A stretch of 64,000 nt of DNA. Origin: a phage. The notes under the pieces were generated by a model that was not told where the DNA came from, made no database searches, and worked only from the letters and a program-made list of their open reading frames with translations. The position numbers and the translations under genes were made by a program. This document shows, piece after piece, positions 16,725 through 64,000 of this stretch. The stretch is from the sequence record PZ445534.1; one strand, written 5' to 3'. The stretch's first letter is position 1. Each line of letters begins with the position of its first letter.

Positions 16725-17771
16725 ATGGAGAAGTACACATTAACAAAACTTCCCGATTCAGTTACACATGTTTTTATTGACTCTGACAGTATTGCCTATA
16801 AAGGTGCTTGTGTAGTTGAGAAAGCAAAGTATAAATATGTCAATAAACTCACAGCAGAAGAATCTGAACCATTTGATAATGCGAAAGATGCTGCAAGATG
16901 GTTAGCAGACCAGAGAATCCTTGTGGAAGAACTTGGCCTGACATTTGATGAAGATGAATGGGAAAGACAGACTTGGAAAGAAGCTAAGAGTGAAAAAGAA
17001 GCTATCATGGCTACTCAACAGGTTCTTCAGGAATGGCTTAAGGTTGTTGGTAAAGAGAGAATTTGGGTAGGTTATCTAACAGAGAAAGGTGTGCATAAGC
17101 ATAAAGACATTAAAGGTCTTGAGCACCAATATCAAGGTAACCGTAAAGATGCTGTCACACCAACACACTTAGTTGCTTGTCGTGAGTATCTTCTGTCAAG
17201 ACCAGAGTTCAAACTAATTCTTGATGGATTTGAAGCCGATTCTATCGTTATTGCTAAAGCTGAAAAGATGGGTAAAAAGGCTGCCTTGATGAGTATTGAT
17301 AAAGACCTTCGTCAAGCTGAAGGGACTTACTGCATTGATATGACCTATGAAAAGTCACCTTTGATTTTCATTGCTGACAACAACGTAGGTGAAATTTGGG
17401 ATTGCCCAATAAAATCGACACCAAAAGCTAAGAAGACAGTTGGGGTAGGTTTTAAATTTCTTTGTTACCAAGCTGTGGCTGGTGATAATGCTGATAATTA
17501 TTTTGGTTTAAAGGGCGTTGGTAAGGCTACTGTAATGAAAGCACTTGAAGGTAAAACCACCTACAAAGAGTGTCTTGATGCAATTTATGAGCTTTATGCT
17601 AAGAAAGAGTCATACACTTATGTCTCGTGGGATGGTCAAACAATTACCAGAACACCTTTAGAGTTAATGCAGCAACACTTTTTCTTAGCTTATCAGGAAA
17701 GAAACAAGAAAGACGATTTTACTTTTGATAAGTATGGGTGGACACCAAATGTTAACTCAACAAACTCTTAA
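16725..17771 (+). CDS. 5'-3' exonuclease / flap endonuclease (FEN family, T7 gp6-like)
   Basis: Acidic cluster FIDSDSIAY near N-terminus, AGDNADNYFG and H3TH-like LKGVGKATVMKAL. Confidence 0.65.
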   Translation: MEKYTLTKLPDSVTHVFIDSDSIAYKGACVVEKAKYKYVNKLTAEESEPFDNAKDAARWLADQRILVEELGLTFDEDEWERQTWKEAKSEKEAIMATQQVLQEWLKVVGKERIWVGYLTEKGVHKHKDIKGLEHQYQGNRKDAVTPTHLVACREYLLSRPEFKLILDGFEADSIVIAKAEKMGKKAALMSIDKDLRQAEGTYCIDMTYEKSPLIFIADNNVGEIWDCPIKSTPKAKKTVGVGFKFLCYQAVAGDNADNYFGLKGVGKATVMKALEGKTTYKECLDAIYELYAKKESYTYVSWDGQTITRTPLELMQQHFFLAYQERNKKDDFTFDKYGWTPNVNSTNS

Positions 17772-18240
17772 AGAGTACCTACATTATGACCCCGAAACAG
17801 GGGTCTTTACTTGGATTAAGAAATCTGCTAGACACACAAAAATTGGCTCTGTTGCAGGTACAAACTTAAGAGGGTATACCAGAATTTATTTGTTTGGTAA
17901 GGGCTATTATGCACATACCCTAGCCGTTCTGTATATGGATGGATACCTACCTGAGTGTGTTGACCATAAAAATCATGTAACACTAGACAATCGCTGGGTA
18001 AATCTTAGGGCATGTACGTTATCAGAGAACCAATGTAATAGGTTGCTCAATAAGAACAATAAATCAGGTGTTAAAGGTGTGTACTACAAAAAACAGTATG
18101 GTAAGTGGTCTACACAGATAACTTTTAAGAAGAGGGTTTACTTCTTCGGCAACTATGACACTATTGATGAAGCAGCAGAGGTTGTAAATAGGGAACGTCA
18201 ACGTTTACACAAAGAGTTTGCTAATAAAGGTGATGAATGA
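17725..18240 (+). CDS. HNH homing endonuclease with AP2-like domain (paralog of 7353-7886)
   Basis: LHYDPETGVFTW N-terminus, VDHKNHVTLDNRWVNLR HNH core, SGVKGVYY...GKWSTQI AP2-like. Confidence 0.7.
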   Translation: MISMGGHQMLTQQTLKEYLHYDPETGVFTWIKKSARHTKIGSVAGTNLRGYTRIYLFGKGYYAHTLAVLYMDGYLPECVDHKNHVTLDNRWVNLRACTLSENQCNRLLNKNNKSGVKGVYYKKQYGKWSTQITFKKRVYFFGNYDTIDEAAEVVNRERQRLHKEFANKGDE

Positions 18241-55978: not shown

Positions 55979-56205
55979 TTTTCAGTTCTCCTGCGATTTA
56001 TAATTTTGCTGCAATAGAGAAACGAAGTAAACTCACTGGAAGAAACTACTAAGTGTTGTTCACTAGATTGAGCCATTGCCCTGAAATACATTCCAGTCAA
56101 AGCATCATAGTGACTATTCTTTCCAATTGAGGTTATATAGCCATGACTCTTTGCAGTTTGATATAAATCTATAATATCTGCGATTTCTAATTGGGAACTA
56201 CACAT
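55972..56205 (-). CDS. hypothetical protein
   Basis: 77-aa ORF. Confidence 0.3.
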   Translation of the reverse strand: MCSSQLEIADIIDLYQTAKSHGYITSIGKNSHYDALTGMYFRAMAQSSEQHLVVSSSEFTSFLYCSKIINRRRTEKC

Positions 56206-56597
56206 AGATAATCCTCTTGTCTTCTGTAATTTTGAAAGAACAGGTACAGACCAATTTCAGAGGATGAATAGTAGAGTAACTCTACCCTTTTTGATTCCTT
56301 ACAGTGATTGGTATTTTTACCTTTCTTCGGGTTGTTTGATTTTCTCATTAAGTCTCCTTTGTAGAACAAGGCAGACCTACAGCTTTAAGTAAGATGGTAC
56401 AGTAATCCATACAACAAGTCAAGAACTATTGCAAGTTAAAAAAGTTGTTGACAAAGTACTTGACAAGGTGTAGGCTTATAAATACTTAGAAGATAACTTA
56501 AAAGGTTCCTCTAAAAAGGCTATTTAAACAGATATCTTTCTGGATATCTATCTTTTATCTTAAAAGCCTTTTAAGAGGTCTTATAAGAGGCATACCA

Positions 56598-56969
56598 ATG
56601 AAAAACAGAACAAACAAAGGCCAGTTTAAAAAAGGCCAGTCTGGAAACCCATCTGGAAGACCAAAAGGCTCTCGTAACAAAAGTTCACTCGTAAAAGCTC
56701 AACTGACCATTGATAATTCTGCTGAGTTCGCTGCAAAGCTGTTTGAGGCGATTGTTACAAGGGACGCGGCTAAGCTTGCAGAGTTCGGGTTAAACACAGA
56801 TGACGTAACCATCAAGAGTATGATTGAGGTCGGTAAAACTATCTTTACTCACTCAGCAGGTGAGATGAAAGCACTTGCAGCAGACACTAAGAAGACTCCT
56901 GATAATGGTGGTCAACAACAGACAGATAACAAACCAACGTTCTCTGCTGTAGCGACTCTCAAAAAATAA
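56598..56969 (+). CDS. hypothetical protein with N-terminal GNPSGRPKG motif
   Basis: KKGQSGNPSGRPKGSRN motif at N-terminus; function unknown. Confidence 0.4.
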   Translation: MKNRTNKGQFKKGQSGNPSGRPKGSRNKSSLVKAQLTIDNSAEFAAKLFEAIVTRDAAKLAEFGLNTDDVTIKSMIEVGKTIFTHSAGEMKALAADTKKTPDNGGQQQTDNKPTFSAVATLKK

Positions 56970-56981
56970 TCTTAAAAGATG

Positions 56982-57011
56982 TTGACAGACTCTACAAAGT
57001 TGCTCTAAAGT
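56982..57011 (+). promoter_or_regulatory. sigma70-like promoter (TTGACA ... TAAAGT) embedded in inverted repeat GACAGACT/AGTCTGTC
   Basis: -35 56982-56987; -10 near 57006-57011. Confidence 0.4.
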
Positions 57012-57050
57012 CTGTCACATCAAACAACAAATGAGAGAAGAGAGTAAAAT

Positions 57051-58466
57051 ATGAGCGAGTTATTTAAACATGCGCACCTTCATGCAGGTCGAACTGAAAA
57101 TGGTGCTGTAAACCATACTTCATCAATGTCTGCTCTGGTAGACTTCTACAAAGCCGCTGGCTCAAGCCGTAGCAATGTAGAAGTCTTACCAGACCTGTTC
57201 TACAAAGCTTTGCGTGAGGATGTTGATGTTGCAGTTCGTATTTTACTGCATATGCGAGATGTACGAGAGGGTATGGGTGAGCGTAAAGCCTTCCGAACTG
57301 TTTTACTTCAAGCAATTGAAGATAAGGTTTTAGAACCTACACAGGTTCTTCGCATTATGGATAAGATTGCAGAACTTGGTCGTTTTGATGACTTCAAAAT
57401 CTTCGTAGGTACTCGTTTTGAGACAGATGCCTTCAAACATTTAGAAGCAGCATTACTAGACCCTGCAACAGCAGGTTTGGCAGCTAAGTGGTTACCACGA
57501 GTCAAACCACGTCATAAGCAGTTTGTAAAACGTTTCTGCAAGTTTGCCAACTTGAGTGAGAAAGAGTACCGCACACTGTTGTCTGCACTATCTGATACAG
57601 TTGAGCAAAAAATCTCTGCTAATGAGTTTGGTAAGATTGACTACAGTAAGATTCCTTCACTTGCTGCTGCACGTTACCAAAAACTGTTTAACCGTAAAGA
57701 TGGAGAGCGTTACAAAGCTTACATCGAGTCCTTATCAAAAGGTGAGACTAAGATTAACGCTGGTGCTGTTTACCCATACGATGTGATTAAATCTGTCAAG
57801 TATGGTAATGCAGATGTTGCTAATGAGCAGTGGAAAGCACTACCAAACTGGATGGCAGAAGGTGAAAACATCTTGTGTATGTCTGATGTATCAAGTTCAA
57901 TGTCTTGGGTGAATTTTGGCTCCATTACTGCTCTGGATATTGGTGTATCACTTGCCTTGTATGTAGCAGAACGCAATACAGGTTGCTTTAAGAATGAGTT
58001 AATGGTTTATTCAACAAACCCTCACTTCATCGAACTGAGTGGTGATTTACGAAACCGTCATCGTCAGGTGATGCGACACGTTGAATATGGCTCAACTAAC
58101 TTACAAGCAGCTTTTGACCGCATTCTTGAAACAGGTAAAAGAAACAACTTGACTCAGAAAGATATGCCAAGTAAGCTTATCATCTTCTCCGATATGGAGT
58201 TCAATCAGGTTGATGGAGCTAACGGTCGTACAAACTTTGAAGCAATTCAGAGTAAGTACAAAAAAGCTGGATATGAGATGCCACAACTGGTATTCTGGTA
58301 CTTAGCAAACCGTAATGGTACTTGCGAAGTATCTGTTAAGGATAACGGTGTAGCAATGTTATCAGGGTTCTCTCCAGCCACTTTAAAAGCTCTGCTTGGT
58401 GGTGAGAAGTTTGACCCAATCAGTGTAATGCTCAAAGCAGTAATGATTGACCGTTATATCTGGTAA
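57051..58466 (+). CDS. von Willebrand factor A domain protein (DUF2828/TROVE-like?)
   Basis: MIDAS-like CMSDVSSSMSW (DxSxS); N-terminal TENGAVNHTSS segment. Confidence 0.45.
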   Translation: MSELFKHAHLHAGRTENGAVNHTSSMSALVDFYKAAGSSRSNVEVLPDLFYKALREDVDVAVRILLHMRDVREGMGERKAFRTVLLQAIEDKVLEPTQVLRIMDKIAELGRFDDFKIFVGTRFETDAFKHLEAALLDPATAGLAAKWLPRVKPRHKQFVKRFCKFANLSEKEYRTLLSALSDTVEQKISANEFGKIDYSKIPSLAAARYQKLFNRKDGERYKAYIESLSKGETKINAGAVYPYDVIKSVKYGNADVANEQWKALPNWMAEGENILCMSDVSSSMSWVNFGSITALDIGVSLALYVAERNTGCFKNELMVYSTNPHFIELSGDLRNRHRQVMRHVEYGSTNLQAAFDRILETGKRNNLTQKDMPSKLIIFSDMEFNQVDGANGRTNFEAIQSKYKKAGYEMPQLVFWYLANRNGTCEVSVKDNGVAMLSGFSPATLKALLGGEKFDPISVMLKAVMIDRYIW

Positions 58467-58484
58467 AAAGTTTTAAAAAGGGTA

Positions 58485-58513
58485 TTGACAATGTGTTTAA
58501 TACCCTTTAATAT
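58485..58513 (+). promoter_or_regulatory. sigma70-like promoter (TTGACA-17-TAATAT) embedded in palindrome AAGGGTATT/AATACCCTT
   Basis: -35 58485-58490, -10 58508-58513. Confidence 0.5.
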
Positions 58514-58575
58514 GTTCTACATAGTAGCGAAATGAGAGCTTTTCTAAGATACTGAAAAATATTTTAAAAAAGTTC

Positions 58576-58605
58576 TTGACAATCACTAAAAAATAATGTT
58601 AAAGT
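58576..58605 (+). promoter_or_regulatory. sigma70-like promoter upstream of tRNA array (TTGACA-18-TAAAGT)
   Basis: -35 58576-58581, -10 58600-58605. Confidence 0.45.
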
Positions 58606-58622
58606 GGTTACATAGAGTTTGA

Positions 58623-58699
58623 AAAGTTTATCTCTGTTTAGCTCAGCTTGGTAGAGCGTTCCGTTTGGGGCGGTAAGGCCGGAGGTTCAAGTCCTCCAA
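58623..58699 (+). tRNA. tRNA-Pro (anticodon TGG)
   Basis: Acceptor CTCTGTT/AACAGAG, D-arm AGCTCAGCTTGGTAGAGC, T-arm GGAGGTTCAAGTCCTCC, encoded CCA; one anticodon-stem mismatch. Confidence 0.7.
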
Positions 58700-58706
58700 C
58701 AGAGAC

Positions 58707-58784
58707 CAAATTAATGTTCCAGTAGACAAAATGGTATAGTCACCACTCTTTCAAAGTGGATATCTGAGGGTTCAAATCCCTTCT
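58707..58784 (+). tRNA. tRNA-Glu (anticodon TTC)
   Basis: Acceptor GTTCCAG/CTGGAAC, anticodon arm CCACT-CTTTCAA-AGTGG, T-loop TTCAAAT, CCA. Confidence 0.7.
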
Positions 58785-58786
58785 GG

Positions 58787-58866
58787 AACGCCAGTTTTGA
58801 CAGAAGACCAATTACAGCAAACTTAATCTACTCATCTGAAAGTTAATCGGACAAAGAAGATATTTG
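58787..58866 (+). repeat. inter-tRNA repeat element copy 1 (ACAGAAGACC-N4-TACAGCAA ... GGTCTGG)
   Basis: Conserved 5' and 3' motifs shared with copies at 58953, 59347, 59437. Confidence 0.6.
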
Positions 58867-58875
58867 GTCTGGTCA

Positions 58876-58951
58876 TTAAGAATTGCGGGTATAGAGAAAG
58901 GGCGTCTCACATGTCTCATTAGCATGGTATCGGCAGGTTCGACTCCTGCAC
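58876..58951 (+). tRNA. tRNA with CAT anticodon (Met/fMet/Ile2), irregular acceptor pairing
   Basis: D-arm GAGA-AAGGGCG-TCTC, anticodon arm CATGT-CTCATTA-GCATG, T-arm GCAGGTTCGACTCCTGC; acceptor 6 of 7 pairs. Confidence 0.5.
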
Positions 58952-58952
58952 C

Positions 58953-59025
58953 CGCCTCCAAATTTACAGAAGACCGTTTACAGCAATATTTATTAAATTT
59001 TTAGCGGAAAAATTGAAAGATACGG
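58953..59025 (+). repeat. inter-tRNA repeat element copy 2
   Basis: ACAGAAGACCGTTTACAGCAA ... ACGGTCTGGT. Confidence 0.6.
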
Positions 59026-59034
59026 TCTGGTAAT

Positions 59035-59108
59035 ACTAAATATGGTTAGGAAGCACATAAGGTATGTGCGGTCGCCTGTTAAGCGAATGGCACAGGGTTC
59101 GAATCCCT
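59035..59108 (+). tRNA. tRNA-Asn (anticodon GTT)
   Basis: Acceptor GGTTAGG/ACTAACC, D-arm GCAC-ATAAGGTAT-GTGC, anticodon loop CTGTTAA, T-arm CAGGGTTCGAATCCCTG; no encoded CCA. Confidence 0.6.
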
Positions 59109-59119
59109 GACTAACCGCA

Positions 59120-59207
59120 AAATTAAATGTGTCGTTATCCCGTAGATGGTAGCGGTGGGGACTGTAAATCCCTTGTCATTGAGACTCGGTAGGTTCGACT
59201 CCTACAC
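59120..59207 (+). tRNA. tRNA-Tyr (anticodon GTA), long variable arm
   Basis: Acceptor GTGTCGT/ACGGCAC, anticodon arm GGGGA-CTGTAAA-TCCCT, T-arm GTAGGTTCGACTCCTAC, CCA. Confidence 0.65.
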
Positions 59208-59212
59208 GGCAC

Positions 59213-59289
59213 ACCAATAAAGGCTATGTAGTTTAACTGGAGAAAATACTCCCCTGTCACGGGAGATGATGTGAGTTCAAGTCTCATCG
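59213..59289 (+). tRNA. tRNA-Asp (anticodon GTC)
   Basis: Acceptor GGCTATG/CGTAGCC, anticodon arm CTCCC-CTGTCAC-GGGAG, T-loop TTCAAGT, CCA. Confidence 0.7.
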
Positions 59290-59346
59290 TAGCCGCCAAT
59301 TTTGAGAGGGCTATTTAGCCCCTCCCTTAAAGAGTTCTTACGAGTA

Positions 59347-59428
59347 TTCTTTAAAGGAGCAGAAGACCAAATACAGCAAGAATGTATGATATTTTCAAGC
59401 CAATTCAATTTTGAAAAATTTAAAACTT
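59347..59428 (+). repeat. inter-tRNA repeat element copy 3
   Basis: CAGAAGACCAAATACAGCAA ... CTTGGTCTGGC. Confidence 0.55.
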
Positions 59429-59436
59429 GGTCTGGC

Positions 59437-59572
59437 TCAACAAATTTACAGAAGACCGTTTACAGCAAAACTTAAACAATCTATTTCTCGGTAAAGAAAA
59501 GGCGAAGGTTCGATTCCTTCACTCGGCAGAGGTCGAGTTGGTGTAATGGTAGCACTTAAGATGATAAACAAC
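59437..59572 (+). repeat. inter-tRNA repeat element copy 4 enclosing tRNA halves in permuted order
   Basis: ACAGAAGACCGTTTACAGCAA ... [anticodon-arm-like + T-arm GAAGGTTCGATTCCTTC + 3' acceptor ACTCGGC] GAG [5' acceptor GTCGAGT + D-arm GTGTAATGGTAGCAC] ... ACGGTCTGGT. Confidence 0.5.
59474..59547 (+). other. tRNA-like segments in 3'-half then 5'-half order (permuted tRNA or recombinant tRNA fragments)
   Basis: 3' acceptor ACTCGGC (59512-59518) is complementary, with one G.U, to GTCGAGT (59523-59529) located 4 nt downstream. Confidence 0.4.
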
Positions 59573-59721
59573 GGTCTGGTAATTATCTTTGCAGTAGCTT
59601 ATGTGGCTAATTATGTCGTCCCATGAGTGCCGATGAATTTCCTTAGCATGATTCTAGATTAGCTTAATAGGAAATGACTCTACAGACCCTTTAGCAAGGT
59701 CTGCGTAGGTTACTGCAAAGA

Positions 59722-59797
59722 TGATTTAATGGAAGTGTAGCAGAATGGTGATGCGGCAGACTTTTAATCTGACAGGCGATGGGTTCGAATCCCTCCA
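59722..59797 (+). tRNA. tRNA-Lys (anticodon TTT)
   Basis: Acceptor GGAAGTG/CACTTCT, anticodon loop CTTTTAA, T-loop TTCGAAT with weak T-stem, CCA; homologous to tRNA at 60957. Confidence 0.55.
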
Positions 59798-59802
59798 CTT
59801 CT

Positions 59803-59879
59803 ACCAAAAATGGTTCAGTCGCAGATAAGGTAATGCAAGGGTTTCATAAGCCCTATGAATGTGGGTTCGATTCCCATCT
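59803..59879 (+). tRNA. tRNA with CAT anticodon (Met/fMet/Ile2)
   Basis: Acceptor GGTTCAG/CTGAACC, anticodon arm AGGGT-TTCATAA-GCCCT, T-loop TTCGATT, CCA. Confidence 0.65.
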
Positions 59880-59881
59880 GA

Positions 59882-59957
59882 ACCTCCAATGCTGTGAAAG
59901 CACATATGGATGTGCATTCGGCTGATAACCGAAAGGCAGAAGGTTCGAATCCTTCTC
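59882..59957 (+). tRNA. tRNA-Ile (anticodon GAT)
   Basis: Acceptor GCTGTGA/TCACAGT, D-arm GCAC-ATATGGAT-GTGC, anticodon arm TTCGG-CTGATAA-CCGAA, T-arm GAAGGTTCGAATCCTTC, CCA. Confidence 0.7.
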
Positions 59958-59972
59958 ACAGTACCAATTTCA

Positions 59973-60001
59973 ATAAAGTTGTTGACATTAAGATGTGACT
60001 A
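59973..60001 (+). promoter_or_regulatory. sigma70-like promoter inside tRNA array (TTGACA-17-TATAGT)
   Basis: -35 59973-59978, -10 59996-60001. Confidence 0.55.
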
Positions 60002-60205
60002 CTTTATAGTAACCTTAGTTTTCGTTGCGTAGCGTCTATTTTGCAAATTTAAAATAAATGCAAACGACAATGTTTTTCTGGCAGTAGCTTGATAGGCTAA
60101 ACACCAGTGAGGTCTTCCAATCCCTCATCAAAGAATTTGGCGTACTCGCCCACGGTATGATTAATAAGGTGGGCATCTTTAAGGGCTTTCTAATAGAGTC
60201 TTTAA

Positions 60206-60287
60206 AGATAATTACGGGGCGTATCTCAGCGGTCTTCTAAACCGCCGTTAACCGAGTAAGTGGAGTATGCGGGTTCGAGTCCTGCCG
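60206..60287 (+). tRNA. atypical tRNA-like gene, possible anticodon TCT (Arg)
   Basis: Acceptor CGGGGCG/CGCCTCG, T-arm GCGGGTTCGAGTCCTGC, CCA; hairpin GCGGT-CTTCTAA-ACCGC; D-arm region not canonical. Confidence 0.4.
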
Positions 60288-60430
60288 CCTCGACCAATTT
60301 AGTTAGCAGATTACTTAGACGACCTAAGCGGGTCTTCCTGTAGGGAGGTGGTCTGTATCTCATGTTTTCCAGAACATGTAAATAATCTGAGAAGGGGCTT
60401 TACAGTGTTGAGATAATACGGTAAGCTTCG

Positions 60431-60513
60431 AATTATAGTATGGGACGATGTTAAGACTCTAAGGCATGAGCAACGGCCTCCAAAACCGTTTCAAAGGGGT
60501 TCAACTCCTCCGT
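60431..60513 (+). tRNA. atypical tRNA-like gene, possible anticodon CCA (Trp)
   Basis: Perfect acceptor ATGGGAC/GTCCCAT, T-loop TTCAACT, CCA; enlarged D region. Confidence 0.4.
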
Positions 60514-60526
60514 CCCATGCCAAAGT

Positions 60527-60614
60527 CTTATTAGGGGTAGGTAGCGGCTAATGGCAGCCAAACAGTCTTGAAAACTGTTGCCACTGTAGAGATACGGTGA
60601 GGGTTCGACTCCTT
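60527..60614 (+). tRNA. tRNA-Ser (anticodon TGA), long variable arm
   Basis: Acceptor GGTAGGT/ACTTACC, anticodon arm ACAGT-CTTGAAA-ACTGT, 20-nt variable arm, T-loop TTCGACT. Confidence 0.6.
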
Positions 60615-60770
60615 TACTTACCGCCTAATAAGATTTTAAAGCCAAGCTTCATTCGGATGTCGCTTTGGTATCCCTCGTGTATTGTCGTACACACTGATAA
60701 AACACCTAGTAGGTGTCACGGAGAAGAGATAATATCAAGCTCTCCAAAGGTTCTAGTCACCGGATTAAAC

Positions 60771-60797
60771 AAGACTATGCAAAGACCTTTTTAGGTC
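60771..60797 (+). terminator. rho-independent terminator inside tRNA array
   Basis: AGACC-TTTTT-AGGTCT plus TTTTT. Confidence 0.5.
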
Positions 60798-60872
60798 TTT
60801 TTAGAGGGCTTCTAAGGTTATTACAGCTTGTTGTGGAACCTTGTTGCTTAGGTTCTTAGAAGTTCTCTAAAA

Positions 60873-60949
60873 AGATTTAATGCACCTATAGCCCAACTGG
60901 TAGAGGCAGCAGACTTAGAATCTGCTCAGTGTGAGTTCGAATCTCTCTA
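60873..60949 (+). tRNA. tRNA with anticodon TAG (Leu by anticodon) but short variable arm
   Basis: Acceptor GCACCTA/TAGGTGT, anticodon arm GCAGA-CTTAGAA-TCTGC, T-loop TTCGAAT, CCA. Confidence 0.55.
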
Positions 60950-60956
60950 GGTGTAC

Positions 60957-61032
60957 CAAATTAATGCAGGTGTAGCAAAATGGTTATGCGGCTGACCCTT
61001 AATCAGTAAGACGATGGGTTCAATTCCCTCCA
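60957..61032 (+). tRNA. tRNA-Lys (anticodon CTT)
   Basis: Acceptor GCAGGTG/CACCTGT, anticodon arm GCTGA-CCCTTAA-TCAGT, T-loop TTCAATT, CCA. Confidence 0.55.
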
Positions 61033-61038
61033 CCTGTA

Positions 61039-61114
61039 CCAAACAATGGGGTCATAGTTTATATGGTTAAAATTCGAGTTTTGCAAACTTGGGAACTGAG
61101 TTCAATTCTCAGTG
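61039..61114 (+). tRNA. tRNA-Ala (anticodon TGC)
   Basis: Acceptor GGGGTCA/TGACTCC, anticodon arm CGAGT-TTTGCAA-ACTTG, T-arm CTGAGTTCAATTCTCAG, CCA. Confidence 0.7.
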
Positions 61115-61120
61115 ACTCCA

Positions 61121-61195
61121 CCAATTAGTGCATCCATAGTTTAAACGGGAAAATTACAGTCTTCCAAACTGAGGTTGAGGGTTCGATTCCCTCTG
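61121..61195 (+). tRNA. tRNA-Gly (anticodon TCC)
   Basis: Acceptor GCATCCA/TGGATGC, anticodon loop CTTCCAA, T-arm GAGGGTTCGATTCCCTC, CCA. Confidence 0.7.
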
Positions 61196-61202
61196 GATGC
61201 TC

Positions 61203-61278
61203 CAAATTAATGCTCCTATCGTATAATTGGTTATTACGGTTGCCTTGTAAGCAACTTATCAGGGTTCGAGTCCTTGTG
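61203..61278 (+). tRNA. tRNA-Thr (anticodon TGT)
   Basis: Acceptor GCTCCTA/TGGGAGC, anticodon arm GTTGC-CTTGTAA-GCAAC, T-loop TTCGAGT, CCA. Confidence 0.7.
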
Positions 61279-61384
61279 GGAGCACCAATTCAGAGGTCAA
61301 GTGAAAGACCGCTTTGAGTCAACTGAAGACCGTAACAAATTCCACGAAGTTGAGTTAGCGGCACAACTTCAGACCTCTTTCATA

Positions 61385-61459
61385 CTCGCTTAGTTTATAT
61401 GGTAAAACATCACCCTTACAAGATGAAGAAAAAGGTTCAAGTCCTTTAGTGAGTACCAT
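61385..61459 (+). tRNA. tRNA-Val (anticodon TAC)
   Basis: Acceptor ACTCGCT/AGTGAGT, anticodon loop CTTACAA, T-arm AAAGGTTCAAGTCCTTT, CCA. Confidence 0.6.
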
Positions 61460-61460
61460 G

Positions 61461-61538
61461 TTCCAGTATCCCAATTGGCAGAGGATGCAAGCTCAAACCT
61501 TGTATTAGTGACGGTTCGAATCCGTCTTGGAACACCAA
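61461..61538 (+). tRNA. tRNA with anticodon CAA (Leu by anticodon) but short variable arm
   Basis: Acceptor GTTCCAG/TTGGAAC, anticodon arm GCAAG-CTCAAAC-CTTGT, T-arm GACGGTTCGAATCCGTC, CCA. Confidence 0.55.
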
Positions 61539-61543
61539 TTTTG

Positions 61544-61619
61544 CAGGATTAGTTCAAATGGATAGAGCAACAGTCTACGAAGCTGCTAATAGGGGTTCGA
61601 ATCCCTTATCCTGCGCCAA
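61544..61619 (+). tRNA. tRNA-Arg (anticodon ACG)
   Basis: Acceptor GCAGGAT/ATCCTGC, D-arm GTTC-AAATGGATA-GAGC, anticodon loop CTACGAA, T-loop TTCGAAT, CCA. Confidence 0.6.
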
Positions 61620-61637
61620 TTTAAAGAGGCTATTTAG

Positions 61638-62195
61638 ATGAGATATTTGAAGTATGCTTCATGGATTTTCTTAGCTTTGTTAGAGCCATTTGCAGCAATC
61701 TTAGCAGTTATCTTAGCACCTTTTGTAGTTCCATTCTACAGTGAGAAGAAAGGGCACTTACCTTTCGGGTTCAGATGGATGGAGACATATGACAACCCAA
61801 TTGATGGTGATGAAGGTCACGTTAAAAGATGGGCTAATATTAGATGGATTGGTAAACTAGGTGTCTACATGCAAAGAGTCGGATGGCTCTGGAGAAACAA
61901 AGCTTATAACTTCTCTTACCATGTATTAGGAAGAGATGTAAGAGATGTTACTAAGTGGAAAGGTAATATCAACGTAAGTTCTGACCCCGAAGATAATCAG
62001 ACAGGTTATCTCCTAATGTGGAACAGTAATGCTTGGGGATTATTCGCTTTTATCCCATCAATTAAAATCTTTGGTAAACAATTTTACTGGAGAATTTATA
62101 TTGGATGGAAACTAAAAAGTGTTGTCCCAGAAGAAAGAGCATTCTCAAGGGAAAGAGTTATGTTGGCATTCTTTATTCATCCACTGAGAAAGTAA
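61638..62195 (+). CDS. hypothetical membrane-anchored protein encoded within tRNA array
   Basis: 185-aa ORF with N-terminal hydrophobic segment WIFLALLEPFAAILAVILAPFVV. Confidence 0.45.
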   Translation: MRYLKYASWIFLALLEPFAAILAVILAPFVVPFYSEKKGHLPFGFRWMETYDNPIDGDEGHVKRWANIRWIGKLGVYMQRVGWLWRNKAYNFSYHVLGRDVRDVTKWKGNINVSSDPEDNQTGYLLMWNSNAWGLFAFIPSIKIFGKQFYWRIYIGWKLKSVVPEERAFSRERVMLAFFIHPLRK

Positions 62196-62203
62196 AGATT
62201 TAA

Positions 62204-62279
62204 AGGGGATTAGTTTACAAGGTTAAAACCTCGGTCTTTGAAATCGAAGAAGTTGGTTCAATTCCAACATCCCCCGCCA
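62204..62279 (+). tRNA. tRNA-Gln (anticodon TTG)
   Basis: Acceptor AGGGGAT/ATCCCCC (1-72 mismatch), D-arm GTTT...AAAC, anticodon arm TCGGT-CTTTGAA-ATCGA, T-arm GTTGGTTCAATTCCAAC, CCA. Confidence 0.6.
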
Positions 62280-62281
62280 AT

Positions 62282-62360
62282 GCTCCATTACTCCAATTGG
62301 CAGAGAGGCCAGACTTAAAATCTGTGTTATGTATCGGTTCGAATCCGATATGGAGTACCA
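62282..62360 (+). tRNA. tRNA with anticodon TAA (Leu by anticodon), 7-nt variable loop
   Basis: Acceptor GCTCCAT/ATGGAGT, anticodon loop CTTAAAA, T-arm ATCGGTTCGAATCCGAT, CCA. Confidence 0.5.
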
Positions 62361-62365
62361 AATTT

Positions 62366-62441
62366 AGCGGTATAGCATAACTGGCAATGCAGCAGCCTCT
62401 GAAGCTGTCCTATTAAGGTTCAAATCCTTATGCCGCTGCCA
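62366..62441 (+). tRNA. tRNA-Gln (anticodon CTG)
   Basis: Acceptor AGCGGTA/TGCCGCT, D-arm GCAT-AACTGGCA-ATGC, anticodon arm GCAGC-CTCTGAA-GCTGT, T-arm TAAGGTTCAAATCCTTA, CCA. Confidence 0.7.
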
Positions 62442-62472
62442 CTTCTAAGGATTCTTGCGAGAGTCCTTAAAT

Positions 62473-62548
62473 GTGGCCTTATCATAAACGGTAATGACCC
62501 ATGCTGTGAACATGGTCTATACGGGTTCAAATCCCGTAGGTCACCCCA
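62473..62548 (+). tRNA. tRNA-His (anticodon GTG)
   Basis: Acceptor GTGGCCT/AGGTCAC, anticodon arm CCATG-CTGTGAA-CATGG, T-arm ACGGGTTCAAATCCCGT, CCA. Confidence 0.7.
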
Positions 62549-62554
62549 ATTTAT

Positions 62555-62630
62555 AGTCCAAGTAGCTTATATGGTTAAAGCGCGTGTCTGAAAAACATGA
62601 GAAGAGAGTTCAAATCCCACTGGACTACCA
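62555..62630 (+). tRNA. tRNA-Phe (anticodon GAA), boundaries approximate
   Basis: Anticodon arm CGTGT-CTGAAAA-ACATG, D-arm GCTT...AAGC, T-loop TTCAAAT; acceptor pairing ambiguous between two registers. Confidence 0.5.
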
Positions 62631-62646
62631 ATTTCAAAGGTGCTTA

Positions 62647-63381
62647 ATGAAAGAGATGACAGAACAAGGTAAGGAGATTTTTAATCTCTTAAAAACTGGT
62701 AAAGGGTTCTCTAACCCGCTTATTACTGGTGCAGCAGTTCTCGGTGGAACCGTAGCTGCCTCTACATCACTTGTAAGCTCTATTAGTTCTGTAACAGACC
62801 CTACAATGAAGGAGAAGCTTGTTGCTGCTGGACTTACAACAGTCCTTCTAAACAGCTTTACAACAAGCCTGACAAGCACTACAGCAACCACTAAGACCCT
62901 AACAGACTATGGTCAAAAGTCTATTGATGAGTTTTCATCACGTATGCAGGTAGCAAAGGGATACTCCAATGTTATGGGTGCAGCAGGAGAACAAGTTGGT
63001 TGTACACCATTCAGTGGTATTATGGGTGTTGCTACAGAATATGGTCAAAAAGCTATTGATACGATTAACAGTACACTAGAGAGTGTTAATGGTGTGTTAA
63101 GTGACTTACAAGATGCTATTGATAAGGGTCTTGATACTGTTTCTGATTTAGCTAATCAGGCTGTTAGTAAGATTAATGAAGGTATTTCAAAGATTACAGC
63201 TTATGCAGATGAAGTTGTGCAGATGATTGAAGAAGAAGCTGCCCTTATTGCAGAGTACCTTAAAACGAATATCAATGGGTTCTTAGCAGGTATCTTACCA
63301 GACTGGTTTGATGATGCTTGTAAAACTGGTGTAATCGACACTATTGCAACACCAGAAATGAAGAACGCATTGCAGAAATAA
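62647..63381 (+). CDS. hypothetical Ser/Thr-rich protein
   Basis: ATG at 62647 with AAGGTG RBS (ORF track start 62584 would overlap tRNA-Phe). Confidence 0.45.
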   Translation: MKEMTEQGKEIFNLLKTGKGFSNPLITGAAVLGGTVAASTSLVSSISSVTDPTMKEKLVAAGLTTVLLNSFTTSLTSTTATTKTLTDYGQKSIDEFSSRMQVAKGYSNVMGAAGEQVGCTPFSGIMGVATEYGQKAIDTINSTLESVNGVLSDLQDAIDKGLDTVSDLANQAVSKINEGISKITAYADEVVQMIEEEAALIAEYLKTNINGFLAGILPDWFDDACKTGVIDTIATPEMKNALQK

Positions 63382-63382
63382 T

Positions 63383-63475
63383 GGAAGATTAACCCTAAAA
63401 GGTAAGGGAGCAGTTTGCTAAACTGCCAGTAGCTGAGAAATCGGTGTACCAGTTCAAGTCTGGTATCTTCCTCCA
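63383..63475 (+). tRNA. tRNA-Ser (anticodon GCT), long variable arm
   Basis: Acceptor GGAAGAT/ATCTTCC, anticodon arm GCAGT-TTGCTAA-ACTGC, T-arm ACCAGTTCAAGTCTGGT, CCA. Confidence 0.6.
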
Positions 63476-63480
63476 ATTTT

Positions 63481-63555
63481 GAATCCGTGACAGAAATGGA
63501 TATGTGCCTGTCTGCAAAACAGGTTTATAAGGGTTCAAGTCCCTTCGGATTCTCC
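63481..63555 (+). tRNA. tRNA-Cys (anticodon GCA)
   Basis: Acceptor GAATCCG/CGGATTC, anticodon arm CCTGT-CTGCAAA-ACAGG, T-arm AAGGGTTCAAGTCCCTT, CCA. Confidence 0.65.
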
Positions 63556-63778
63556 AAGTTATTTTACTCTCTCTCAATTAAAATAATAATAATGCCCTGC
63601 TATAAGTATTCTTCCTTTCGCTACCGAAGAGTATTTTTAGACAGGGCTTTTTTACAGAGTTATACTTTATAAGAAGGCTTATACAGTATGTCTCTGACGT
63701 ACATTGTGGTTTCTCCTTGACGGTCTCTGTGCCGTCTTTTTTAAGGAGAAACATGGTTAATTATTTGGAGAAAACATA

Positions 63779-63979
63779 ATGAGTGAGACCGTTTATAAAG
63801 AACTTTATGAAGCTAACAAAAAGCTAGAATTTATGCAGAACACTATCATGGCAATTGCAGATAGATTATCTGTAGCAACAGGTATTGATATCAAAGAAGC
63901 CTCTATAGATGCACTTCTTGATGCTGTTGATGCAAAGTTCGAAGTTAAGAAAGAAGAGACTGCTACAGACTCTGAATAA
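63779..63979 (+). CDS. hypothetical small protein
   Basis: 66-aa ORF with AGGAGA-like RBS (GGAGAAAACATAATG). Confidence 0.4.
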   Translation: MSETVYKELYEANKKLEFMQNTIMAIADRLSVATGIDIKEASIDALLDAVDAKFEVKKEETATDSE

Positions 63980-64000
63980 TTCTATTTGCGGAGGTGCTTA

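What the first reader, a model, noticed from the sequence alone, without database searches (positions are those of the whole stretch)
57051..58466. vWA-domain protein immediately upstream of the tRNA array: possible Ro60-like protein with Y-RNA-like partners (speculative)
The protein has a MIDAS-type DxSxS motif (CMSDVSSSMSW) and an N-terminal TENGA segment that I tentatively link to DUF2828/TROVE-type proteins. Ro60 orthologs (TROVE plus vWA) in bacteria and some phages are encoded next to tRNA-like Y RNAs. Its position beside an array containing non-canonical tRNA-like elements makes a Ro60/Y-RNA-type RNP worth testing. The family assignment is from memory and weak.
Basis: inference. Interest (0 to 1): 0.45.

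Follow-up and report, generated by a model that had tools for sequence, protein, structure and literature searches.

The report
Ro60-like phage protein with partner RNAs
A phage gene next to a tRNA cluster encodes a ring-shaped Ro60-like protein, and beside it lie four unannotated small-RNA genes of a widespread, apparently undescribed family that are its likely partners and closely resemble the enigmatic 'Class I' RNAs of social amoebae.

Summary

New here is a concrete RNA partner. Four unannotated elements sit in the tRNA spacers (58798-58875, 58964-59033, 59357-59438, 59446-59582). All share one handle: AAG, a covarying stem, single-stranded UUACAGCAA, a variable insert, the stem complement, then CUG. 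The fourth carries a permuted tRNA-like module, as in YrlA.

The same handle lies beside distant homologues of the gene in 56 of 75 viral loci and 50 of 80 bacterial loci, about 40:1 on the gene's strand.

The handle matches every RNA hallmark of dictyostelid Class I RNAs. A covariance model built only from amoeba sequences finds the phage elements (27 of 27 hits on the gene strand, best E 2e-4).

Binding is inferred, not shown. Whether dictyostelids have a DUF2828 protein could not be tested.

The parts
57051..58466 (+). Gene for a 471-aa Ro60-fold protein (DUF2828 + DUF7788). Aa 1 to about 265 form the alpha-helical TROVE-like ring domain; aa about 270-471 form a vWA domain with MIDAS residues D279, S281, S283, T349 and D381. 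Orthologue of wV8 gp47 and Bas63 gp130.
56982..57011 (+). Sigma-70-like promoter match (TTGACA-18-TAAAGT) just upstream of the gene. This is a consensus match only.
   Evidence: The total number of such matches in the region is not above shuffles.
58477..58605 (+). Spacer between the gene and the tRNA array. It holds a hairpin (58477-58508) and two promoter-like sites (58485-58513 and 58576-58605). This suggests the tRNA/small-RNA array has its own promoters.
   Evidence: consensus matches only. The duplicated 28-mer containing TTGACAAT is repeat family D10.
58798..58875 (+). Element E1, about 78 nt, lying between tRNA-Glu and tRNA-Met. Layout: outer stem UGAC/GUCA; internal loop AGA/G; stem AGACCAA/UUGGUCU; single-stranded UUACAGCAA; variable insert; 3' CUG.
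   Evidence: Rfam Dicty_Class_I_RNA 17.8 bits. Dicty-only model R1 16.3 bits, E 0.053, the second-best hit in the whole window.
58964..59033 (+). Element E2, about 70 nt, lying between tRNA-Met and tRNA-Asn. Layout: outer stem UUAC/GUAA; stem AGACCGU/ACGGUCU, with compensatory changes relative to E1; UUACAGCAA.
   Evidence: fold z = -2.26. Rfam Dicty_Class_I_RNA 20.1 bits. R1 18.9 bits, E 0.011, the best hit in the whole window.
59357..59438 (+). Element E3, about 82 nt. Layout: outer stem GAGC/GCUC; stem AGACCAA/UUGGUCU; AUACAGCAA.
   Evidence: fold z = -2.14. Descriptor hit.
59446..59582 (+). Element E4, about 137 nt. It has the same handle (UUAC/GUAA; AGACCGUU/AACGGUCU; UUACAGCAA) and encloses a permuted tRNA-like module: T arm 59504-59520 (GAAGG-UUCGAUU-CCUUC), a 7-bp acceptor-like hairpin 59521-59538, and a D-arm-like hairpin 59539-59556.
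   Evidence: Fold. Rfam partial tRNA T-arm match at 59500-59520 and Dicty_Class_I 13.0 bits spanning 59454-59578. The same architecture in a relative matches Rfam YrlA: L023 9865-9927, E 4.4e-5 in 70 kb and 1.7e-7 locally.
58632..63556 (+). Array of 25 tRNA genes in which E1-E4 are embedded. Spacers to the flanking tRNAs are only 3-10 nt for E1 and E2, so tRNA-processing enzymes would release the elements.
   Evidence: The release step is inference from the spacing.

Best explanation
The gene encodes a compact Ro60-type ring protein: a TROVE-like helical ring plus a vWA/MIDAS domain, belonging to the DUF2828/DUF7788 family. I propose that it forms ribonucleoprotein particles with small RNAs encoded beside it.

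In this phage those RNAs are E1-E4. They are transcribed with the tRNA array from the array's own promoters and are cut out by the tRNA-processing machinery. Each RNA has two parts.

- An invariant handle: (A)AG closing a 6-8 bp terminal stem, the single-stranded motif U(U/A)CAGCAA directly 3' of the 5' strand, and a 3' CUG. I propose this is the protein-binding site, playing the role of the Ro-binding bulged stem of Y RNAs.
- A variable cargo: an A-rich loop in E1-E3, and a permuted tRNA-like domain in E4. By analogy with YrlA and Y RNAs, the cargo would tether or decoy other factors such as tRNA-recognising enzymes, exoribonucleases or host anti-phage nucleases.

At least one output of the protein is protection against the Ppl defence system.

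Shown here: the predicted fold, the MIDAS motif, the existence, covariation and strand bias of the RNA elements, and their tight family-wide linkage to the gene. Shown by others: the anti-Ppl activity of the 97%-identical orthologue. Inferred: transcription and processing of the elements, direct binding of the handle, and the tether or decoy role of the cargo.
For: Protein
- The MIDAS residues are invariant.

Elements in the window
- Four copies of AGAAGACCNNNTACAGCAA are found, against 0.8 expected.
- All four fold into the same architecture, with compensatory differences between copies: AA:UU versus GU:AC in the inner stem, and UGAC/GUCA, UUAC/GUAA and GAGC/GCUC in the outer stem.

Linkage in distant relatives (38-47% protein identity)
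- TACAGCAA on the gene strand is 11.5-fold denser within 1 kb of the gene than elsewhere in the loci.
- A structural descriptor finds 99 elements on the gene strand, 2 on the opposite strand, and 2-7 in dinucleotide shuffles.
- A relaxed descriptor finds 107 against 4. By this count 56 of 75 loci have at least one element, and 66 of 107 elements lie within 500 nt of the gene.
- In bacterial genome assemblies (33-42% identity; many phyla) the count is 88 against 2. Here 50 of 80 loci have an element, and 67 of 88 elements lie within 500 nt.
- No neighbouring protein family occurs in more than 17 of 75 loci, so the RNA is the only consistent neighbour.
- Reverse test: among viral stretches chosen by the motif alone, 5 of 17 with stem plus CUG hold the gene on the same strand, against 1 of 103 without the stem.

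Stem covariation
- On hits aligned to an independent model, 100% of cells are paired. There are 80 double-change cells against 22 +/- 3.9 in shuffles, and the covariation score is 0.575 against at most 0.151 for slid registers.

tRNA-like cargo
- It recurs in L023, L074, L022, L030, L007 and L046 and in L233, L248, L251 and L253.
- One copy matches Rfam YrlA over its tRNA-like domain at E 4.4e-5.

Precedent and function
- Canonical Ro60 genes in bacteria and phages have their Y RNAs within 4 kb on the same strand (PMC4201824).
- Phage phiLo Ro60 binds two adjacent Y-like RNAs and host PNPase (PMC12135203).
- Deleting Bas63 gp130 sensitises the phage to Ppl, and complementation rescues it.
Against: - No binding or expression data exist for E1-E4.
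- Bas63 gp130 expressed alone from a plasmid, or inserted into T7, restores T7 growth on a Ppl strain. The anti-Ppl activity therefore does not require the phage-encoded RNAs, unless host RNAs substitute.
- Sequence profiles do not connect the protein to TROVE.
- Rfam Y_RNA and YrlA models do not hit anything in the window. The handle is unlike the GNCGAA or GGUCCGA Ro-binding site.
- 19 of 75 viral and 30 of 80 bacterial loci show no element. Many of these have short flanks, and my descriptors are narrow.
- 12 of 17 motif-selected true elements had no homologue in the short stretch that was held.
- The descriptor counts select for pairing. The evidence independent of that selection is the strand bias, the shuffles, the proximity to the gene and the Dicty-trained model.
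Confidence: 0.68

Rival explanations
1. The elements are genuine small RNAs or processing modules of the tRNA operon, such as spacers that guide RNase processing or stable by-products, and they work independently of the protein. On this view the gene and the RNAs merely travel together in a mobile 'RNA module'.
For: E1 and E2 sit 3-10 nt from the flanking tRNAs. About half of the loci have tRNAs nearby on the same strand. gp130 alone suffices against Ppl in T7. Some elements lie 5-9 kb from the gene, inside tRNA arrays.
Against: In 35 of 75 viral loci there is no tRNA within 10 kb, yet 56 of 75 have the element. In Firmicutes the elements sit directly upstream of the gene. No other neighbour is conserved. 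A sequence-invariant single-stranded 8-mer beside a freely covarying stem is what a protein-recognition site looks like, not an RNase spacer.
Confidence: 0.14
2. The elements are cis-regulatory leaders, attenuators or terminators that control expression of the DUF2828 gene or of the tRNA array.
For: In bacterial loci 81 of 88 elements are upstream of the gene, mostly within 500 nt.
Against: In this phage and in half of the viral loci they lie downstream of the gene. They occur in tandem sets of 2-5. They carry tRNA-like cargo. They lack U-tracts, and none of E1-E4 is among the terminator-like sites found by the scan.
Confidence: 0.05
3. They are DNA-level repeats, such as recombination or homing sites, protein-binding inverted repeats or miniature mobile elements, and not RNAs.
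For: They are inverted repeats flanking variable DNA and occur in several copies per genome. Homing endonuclease genes are common in these tRNA regions; wV8 has an HNH gene there.
Against: The strand ratio is extreme, about 40:1, relative to the neighbouring gene. Stems tolerate G-U pairs, which pair only in RNA of this strand, for example L004 AGACCGA/TTGGTCT and L028 AGATTAGT/GCTAGTCT. The inserts are folded tRNA-like domains in transcript orientation.
Confidence: 0.04
4. The protein is a vWA/MIDAS protein-protein adaptor that blocks Ppl directly. Its Ro60-like N-terminal domain no longer binds RNA, so the structural resemblance is vestigial.
For: Transfer of gp130 alone protects T7. The helical domain has about 265 residues against about 360 in Ro60. 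There is no sequence-level TROVE signal.
Against: The tight, family-wide coupling to one RNA family would then be unexplained. Strongly conserved basic and polar positions in the N-terminal domain (R40, R69, R72, R78, R111, K146, R208) are invariant or nearly so.
Confidence: 0.07

Closest known systems
Ro60/Rsr with Y RNAs (YrlA/YrlB) in bacteria and phages, e.g. mycobacteriophages and Thermus phage phiLo
   Same: The predicted fold is a helical ring plus a vWA domain with a MIDAS motif. Small RNA genes lie next to the protein gene on the same strand, often several per locus. The RNAs are modular: a conserved terminal-stem handle plus variable cargo, and in some copies the cargo is a permuted tRNA-like domain (T arm, acceptor-like hairpin, D arm), as in YrlA.
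   Different: The protein is not detectable as TROVE by sequence, belongs to the separate Pfam families DUF2828 and DUF7788, and is shorter. The RNA handle is different: AAG-stem-UACAGCAA...CUG instead of a bulged stem with GNCGAA or GGUCCGA. The RNAs are embedded in a tRNA array. There is no rtcB/rtcA neighbourhood.
Bas63 (Felixounavirus JohannRWettstein) gp130, described in the PhageMaP preprint
   Same: It is the same gene (97% identical, same synteny, same four elements). It was already described as structurally Ro60-like, as lying upstream of the tRNAs, and as a counter-defence against Ppl.
   Different: That work guessed that some annotated tRNA genes are the Y RNAs. It did not identify the spacer elements, their handle, their family-wide linkage or the Class I resemblance.
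Dictyostelid Class I RNAs (Rfam RF01414; Kjellin et al. 2021)
   Same: The genomic start is AAG, with an invariant G pairing the C of a 3' CUG(U). The terminal stem is 6-8 bp and its sequence covaries freely. The motif (CC)UUACAGCAA lies immediately 3' of the 5' strand. The middle is variable and A-rich, the modal length is about 60 nt, and there are many paralogues. Occasional members carry a T-arm-like insert (asu_can_20, ppa_can_99). A model trained only on amoeba sequences retrieves the phage RNAs.
   Different: Class I RNAs are eukaryotic Pol III-type genes with a DUSE promoter, whereas these elements are phage or bacterial and sit in a tRNA operon. Rfam scores stay below the gathering threshold (at most 20.1 against 41.5 bits). 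The only demonstrated Class I binder is the RRM protein CIBP/Rnp1A. Whether dictyostelids have a DUF2828 protein was not testable here.
Small stable RNAs co-transcribed with phage tRNA clusters (T4 species 1 and 2 RNAs, rnaC/rnaD) - from my own knowledge, not checked here
   Same: They are non-tRNA stable RNAs encoded inside a phage tRNA cluster and processed with it, and their function is unknown.
   Different: No sequence comparison was made. T4 is not known to me to encode a DUF2828 protein.

Membership tests
DUF2828 / DUF7788 protein family (Pfam PF11443 + PF25043; PHROG 850) | Matches to both Pfam models above their gathering scores | tested here: met
   PF11443 scores 102.7 bits (cut-off 29). 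PF25043 scores 147.2 bits (cut-off 27.1). PHROG 850 gives E 2e-183.
Ro60 / TROVE family (Pfam PF05731) | TROVE domain recognisable by sequence profile | tested here: not met
   No Pfam TROVE hit at E<=1. A 39-sequence profile against PDB gives Ro60 at E 0.91, over the vWA region only. hhalign against human Ro60 gives probability 32% for aa 239-383 against Ro60 318-471.
Ro60 / TROVE family (Pfam PF05731) | Ring of alpha-helical repeats followed by a vWA domain | tested here: met
Ro60 / TROVE family (Pfam PF05731) | MIDAS motif (DxSxS...T...D) in the vWA domain | tested here: met
   D279, S281, S283, T349 and D381 are invariant in 39 homologues.
Ro60 / TROVE family (Pfam PF05731) | Adjacent Y RNA with the conserved Ro-binding stem (GNCGAAN0-1G or GGUCCGA bulged helix) | tested here: not met
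   No Y_RNA or YrlA match in 56000-64000 at E<=1, or in 59430-59600 at E<=10. The handle sequence is different.
Ro60 / TROVE family (Pfam PF05731) | Binds Y RNA and misfolded RNA | not testable with these tools
   This needs RIP/CLIP or EMSA.
YrlA-type Y RNA (Rfam RF02553) | Internal tRNA-like domain: T arm, acceptor-like hairpin and D arm in permuted order | tested here: inconclusive
   E4 folds into exactly this arrangement, and its T arm matches the tRNA model at positions 43-63. E4 itself, however, gives no YrlA hit at E<=10. A homologous-handle element in L023 matches YrlA model positions 24-84 at 39.2 bits, E 4.4e-5, below the gathering score of 69.
Dictyostelid Class I RNA (Rfam RF01414) | 5' (AA)G and 3' CUG(U), with the G pairing the C, closing a short terminal stem whose sequence covaries | tested here: met
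   E1-E4 read AAGACCNN...NNGGUCUG. Across 48 distinct phage hits the first pair is G-C in 43 of 44, the other five pairs covary, and 100% of cells are paired.
Dictyostelid Class I RNA (Rfam RF01414) | Conserved 11-nt motif CCUUACAGCAA directly 3' of the 5' stem strand, single-stranded | tested here: met
   UUACAGCAA (9 of 11 positions) is found in E1, E2 and E4, and AUACAGCAA in E3, at the same position and unpaired in the folds. The positions reported as invariant across Dictyostelia (T3, C6, C9, A10, A11) are all kept.
Dictyostelid Class I RNA (Rfam RF01414) | Score at or above the Rfam gathering threshold (41.5 bits) | tested here: not met
   Scores are 20.1, 17.8 and 13.0 bits for E2, E1 and E4. 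My model built from 26 dictyostelid sequences gives E 0.011 and 0.053 for E2 and E1, the two best hits in the 64-kb window. Related loci reach 30.1 bits, E 2e-4.
Dictyostelid Class I RNA (Rfam RF01414) | DUSE promoter about 60 nt upstream; eukaryotic Pol III-type gene | not tested
   The DUSE motif was not searched for. E1-E4 lie in a phage tRNA operon, and the only promoter-like matches nearby are bacterial sigma-70-type consensus matches.
Canonical tRNA | Cloverleaf with acceptor stem and anticodon arm, detected by ARAGORN or the Rfam tRNA model | tested here: not met
   E1-E4 are not called by ARAGORN or by the Rfam tRNA model. Only the E4 T arm matches, at 14.9 bits.

The most novel reading that the evidence does not exclude
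The handle RNAs found here and the Class I RNAs of dictyostelid social amoebae are one RNA family, spanning phages, many bacterial phyla and a eukaryotic lineage. Their common purpose would be to serve as the Y-RNA-like partners of DUF2828-type Ro60-like ring proteins.

If so, the long-unexplained and highly abundant Class I RNAs, reported as unique to Dictyostelia, would be bound by a dictyostelid DUF2828 protein. [quoted passage not shown] The family would also have a prokaryotic or viral origin, or a very ancient one.
Probability: 0.3. Interest if true: 0.95.

Novelty: new variant of a known kind. Interest (0 to 1): 0.82.

Why it matters
Ro60-Y RNA particles are known from animals, about 5% of bacteria and a few phages. 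This result would add a second, much larger branch: more than 8,900 cluster representatives match the DUF2828 family profile at E<=0.001 in the protein library. That branch would have its own, previously unrecognised RNA partner.

It gives the PhageMaP anti-defence protein gp130 a concrete and testable RNA ligand. It assigns a role to unannotated spacers in the tRNA arrays of Felix-O1-like phages, which are used for phage typing and therapy. It also defines a simple handle with exchangeable cargo, including tRNA mimics, that phages may use against tRNA- or RNA-targeting immunity.

The resemblance to dictyostelid Class I RNAs turns an open question, namely what these abundant developmental RNAs do and bind, into a direct experiment.

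Tried and rejected
Sequence-level links to TROVE
- Pfam, phmmer and a family profile against PDB, and hhalign against a single Ro60 sequence were all insignificant or marginal.

Rfam Y_RNA and YrlA in the window
- No hits.

Searching distant loci with the exact Felix handle
- AGAAGACC is found only in Felixounavirus. It was replaced by the TACAGCAA motif and then by structural descriptors.
- A first, loose descriptor (630 hits on the gene strand against 366 on the opposite strand) was too unspecific and was tightened.

Conserved protein neighbours
- None occurs in more than 17 of 75 loci.

Whether Dictyostelium has a DUF2828 protein, or what DDB_G0281243 is
- The only held paper with that identifier calls its function unknown.
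- Avesson et al. 2011 is not held.
- The AlphaFold-database fold library was unavailable.
- The supplementary proteome files of Kjellin et al. are truncated and gave no match for the identifier or for family motifs.
- Literature searches for DUF2828, UCP015417 and 'TROVE domain' with Dictyostelium gave nothing relevant.
- I ran no further search on this, because their top-120 lists would be filled with phage or plant proteins.

Prior descriptions of the motif
- A literature search for the motif string returned only siRNA and primer sequences in the papers listed.

Rejected explanations
- That the 'non-canonical tRNAs' of the array are the Y RNAs. The partners are the spacer elements.
- That the elements are intrinsic terminators. 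None of E1-E4 is among the terminator-like sites found by the scan.
Full report
**1. What is at the coordinates**

The ORF 57051-58466 (+) is real: ATG start, 471 aa.

Pfam assigns DUF2828 (PF11443, E 2.6e-29) and DUF7788 (PF25043, E 5.6e-43). PHROGs assigns phrog_850 'RNA-binding protein' (E 2e-183).

The gene ends 165 nt before the first of 25 same-strand tRNA genes, which span 58632-63556.

The window is a Felixounavirus, 97-98% identical to wV8, skuden and similar phages. The gene is wV8 gp47.

**2. The protein has a Ro60 fold**

I aligned 39 homologues of 40-89% identity. An AlphaFold2 model built on that alignment has pLDDT 88.7 and pTM 0.88: helical repeats over aa 28-263, followed by an alpha/beta vWA domain.

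Structure comparisons agree:
- Foldseek against the PDB returns only Ro60/TROVE entries as the ten best hits, all full-length.

All five MIDAS residues (D279, S281, S283, T349, D381) are invariant.

Sequence methods do not reach TROVE:
- Pfam TROVE gives no hit.
- A family profile against PDB gives Ro60 at E 0.91.
- hhalign against human Ro60 gives probability 32%.

I therefore file the protein as a Ro60-fold member of the DUF2828/DUF7788 family, not as a TROVE-family member.

**3. Prior art**

The PhageMaP preprint (10.1101/2024.10.10.617714) studied Bas63 gp130. I verified that this protein is 97% identical to the window protein, with the same synteny.

The preprint reports the following:
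- The protein is structurally similar to Ro60.
- The gene lies upstream of the tRNA genes.
- Deleting the gene sensitises the phage to the Ppl defence (ATPase plus PHP domains).
- gp130 alone protects T7.

The RNA partner was not identified in that work.

**4. The RNA elements in the window**

Reading the tRNA spacers showed a repeated motif. AGAAGACCNNNTACAGCAA occurs four times on the + strand, against 0.8 expected (repeat family D2).

Each copy is matched downstream by GGTCTGG. All four fold alike:
- an outer 4-bp stem (UGAC/GUCA, UUAC/GUAA, GAGC/GCUC, UUAC/GUAA);
- an AGA/G internal loop;
- a 7-8 bp stem AGACCNN/NNGGUCU, with compensatory differences between copies (AA:UU versus GU:AC);
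- single-stranded U(U/A)ACAGCAA;
- a variable insert.

E1 (58798-58875) and E2 (58964-59033) each occupy a slot between two tRNAs, with spacers of 3-10 nt. E3 (59357-59438) and E4 (59446-59582) follow tRNA-Asp.

E4 encloses a T arm (59504-59520, a canonical UUCGAUU loop), a 7-bp acceptor-like hairpin and a D-arm-like hairpin. This is the permuted tRNA-like arrangement described for YrlA (PMC4201824).

Relatives annotate small minus-strand ORFs over this stretch: wV8 gp48 and bas63_0137/0138. These are probably spurious.

**5. The elements travel with the gene across the whole family**

I fetched 75 viral loci whose protein is only 38-47% identical to the window protein. The results were:
- TACAGCAA on the gene strand is 11.5 times denser within 1 kb of the gene than in the rest of the loci.
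- The elements share the consensus (U/A)AAG, stem, N0-2, U(A/U)CAGCAA, variable region, stem complement, CUG. The stems are entirely different between loci.
- A strict descriptor finds 99 on the gene strand, 2 on the other strand, and 2-7 in dinucleotide shuffles.
- A relaxed descriptor finds 107 against 4. By this count 56 of 75 loci have at least one element, and 66 of 107 elements lie within 500 nt of the gene, either upstream or downstream and often as tandem pairs.
- Lengths peak at 50-70 nt.

The longer elements (100-140 nt) often carry T-arm, acceptor-hairpin and D-arm modules. One such module, at L023 9865-9927, lies inside an element with the same kind of handle (here UACCGCAA). It matches the tRNA-like part of Rfam YrlA at E 4.4e-5.

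No protein-coding neighbour is shared by more than 17 of 75 loci.

I also fetched 80 bacterial genome loci at 33-42% identity. They come from Clostridia, Chloroflexi, Spirochaetes, Endomicrobium, Rickettsiales and others.
- A generalised descriptor finds 88 elements against 2, in 50 loci. Of these, 67 lie within 500 nt of the gene, mostly upstream.
- Firmicutes use the variant AAGGUGC-AU-ACAGCAA...GCACCUUG. Their cargo is often a complete D arm, anticodon arm and T arm.

In the reverse direction, I selected viral stretches by the motif alone. Of those with stem plus CUG, 5 of 17 hold the gene on the same strand. Of the motif hits without a stem, 1 of 103 does.

**6. Resemblance to dictyostelid Class I RNAs**

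Rfam's only non-tRNA matches to E1, E2 and E4 were to RF01414, Dicty_Class_I_RNA, at 17.8, 20.1 and 13.0 bits. All are below the gathering score of 41.5.

Kjellin et al. 2021 (PMC7919456) define Class I RNAs by these features:
- a genomic start AAG;
- a 6-bp terminal stem of variable sequence with many compensatory changes;
- an invariant 5' G that pairs the C of a 3' CUGU;
- an 11-nt motif CCUUACAGCAA next to the 5' strand;
- a variable remainder;
- a length of about 60 nt.

Their curated sequences include GUUGAC-C-UUACAGCAA...GUCAAC-UG, GAUCUC-AU-CACAGCAA...GAGAUC-UG and GAACUC-UUACAGCAA...GAGUUC-UG. These line up feature for feature with the phage RNAs, for example AAGAUUCGG-UACAGCAAUC...CCGAAUCUG. 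The A-rich tract before the 3' strand is shared as well. Two amoeba members even carry T-arm-like inserts (asu_can_20 and ppa_can_99).

As a non-circular test I built a covariance model from 26 dictyostelid sequences only. I then searched 1.3 Mb of phage DNA on both strands.
- All 27 hits with E<=1 are full-length and on the gene strand, and they coincide with descriptor elements. The best reach 30.1 bits, E 2e-4.
- At E<=10, 47 of 49 hits are on the gene strand.
- In the 64-kb window with filters off, the two best hits are E2 (E 0.011) and E1 (E 0.053).
- On the aligned phage hits the stem is 100% paired. There are 80 double-change cells against 22 +/- 3.9 in shuffles. The first pair is G-C in 43 of 44.

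E-values from this model are rough, and the phage elements stay below the Rfam threshold. I claim shared hallmarks, not proven homology.

**7. What could not be settled**

I could not determine whether dictyostelids encode a DUF2828-type protein.

[quoted passage not shown] The function of DDB_G0281243 is described as unknown (10.1101/2020.04.05.026054). I could not obtain its sequence.

DUF2828 proteins do exist in eukaryotes and giant viruses, according to plant papers and the tardigrade contamination study.

**8. Mechanism**

The best-supported reading is a Ro60/Y-RNA-type ribonucleoprotein with a different handle:
- The ring protein recognises the AAG/CUG-closed stem and the adjacent UACAGCAA.
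- The variable cargo, either an A-rich loop or a tRNA mimic, recruits or decoys other factors.
- The particle contributes to phage fitness and counter-defence.

Canonical phage Ro60 (phiLo) binds two adjacent Y-like RNAs and host PNPase (PMC12135203). This gives a precedent.

The main caveat is that gp130 alone protects T7 from Ppl. Either that activity is RNA-independent or host RNAs can substitute.

Transcription, processing and binding of E1-E4 remain inferences.

**9. Verdict**

- The real gain is a specific and apparently undescribed RNA family linked to DUF2828 genes in phages and bacteria, with a striking likeness to Class I RNAs. Rfam has no family for it, and the literature searches I could run found no description of it.

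Noticed in passing
window 59982-60213 (+): A strong sigma-70-like promoter match (TTGACA-17-TATAGT, 11 of 12 positions) is followed by GCAAACGACAATGTTTTTCTGGCAGTAGCTTGA. This reads A-N-D-N-V-F-L-A-V-A-stop and resembles a tmRNA tag reading frame. Rfam tmRNA gives 15.8 bits, E 0.0034, well below the gathering score, and ARAGORN calls no tmRNA. A related 20-mer, GCAGTAGCTTATGTGGCTAA, lies at 59591-59610. This may be a tmRNA-like fragment or mimic inside the tRNA array.
   Followed up: partly
window 60215-60293 and 60442-60516 (+): Two tRNA-like sequences are not called by ARAGORN. The first scores 31.7 bits on the Rfam tRNA model, just above the gathering score of 29. The second scores 23 bits on tRNA-Sec and corresponds by position to a 'tRNA-OTHER' pseudogene annotated in wV8. 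These are the 'non-canonical tRNA-like elements' of the array. They lack the UACAGCAA handle.
   Followed up: partly
window 61682-61891 (+), inside the DUF7338 ORF 61638-62195: The structural descriptor also fires here (AGAGCCATT-TGCAGCAA...GATGGCTCT-G, 210 nt), and the hit is conserved in L001, L003 and L006. Because it lies within a well-supported protein-coding gene it is probably chance, but the 9-bp stem is notable. A second isolated descriptor hit lies at 17660-17851.
   Followed up: no
L001 (wV8) 8922-9179 and L203 (Bas63) 16749-17023, equivalent to window about 59360-59700: Small minus-strand 'hypothetical protein' genes (wV8 gp48; bas63_0137 and 0138) are annotated across elements E3 and E4. 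They are likely annotation artefacts over non-coding RNA genes.
   Followed up: partly
L008 8964-9059, L009 3133-3233, L013 149-281, L016 1265-1374, L028 9734-9829: A second recurring cargo module sits inside handle RNAs of several unrelated phages: GAACCUUUCUGGAGGGGAAAGCAAAAACUCGCCAAAA. It forms a hairpin with a GGAGG-containing loop. Its function is unknown.
   Followed up: no
L217-L283 (bacterial genome assemblies, mostly Clostridia): A variant handle, AAG-stem-AU-ACAGCAA...stem-CUUG, occurs in 1-5 tandem copies directly upstream of the DUF2828 gene. Many copies enclose a complete D arm, anticodon arm and T arm, so that the handle stem replaces the tRNA acceptor stem (for example L233 at about 4600 and L248 at about 4610).
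   Followed up: partly
Kjellin et al. [quoted passage not shown]: Two dictyostelid Class I RNAs contain T-arm-like sequences (CCUAGGUUCGAUCCCUAGC and UUGGUUCGAAUCCGA). In asu_can_20 this is followed by a long hairpin. This parallels the tRNA-like cargo of the phage elements.
   Followed up: no
L023 15696-15922 (+): A group I intron (Rfam RF00028, 71.5 bits, E 4e-16) lies about 4 kb downstream of the DUF2828 gene in this uncultivated phage contig.
   Followed up: no
window 56598-56969 (+): A DUF5681 protein gene (Pfam E 2.3e-14; PHROG 4114) lies immediately upstream of the Ro60-like gene on the same strand. It did not appear among the conserved neighbours in the distant loci.
   Followed up: partly
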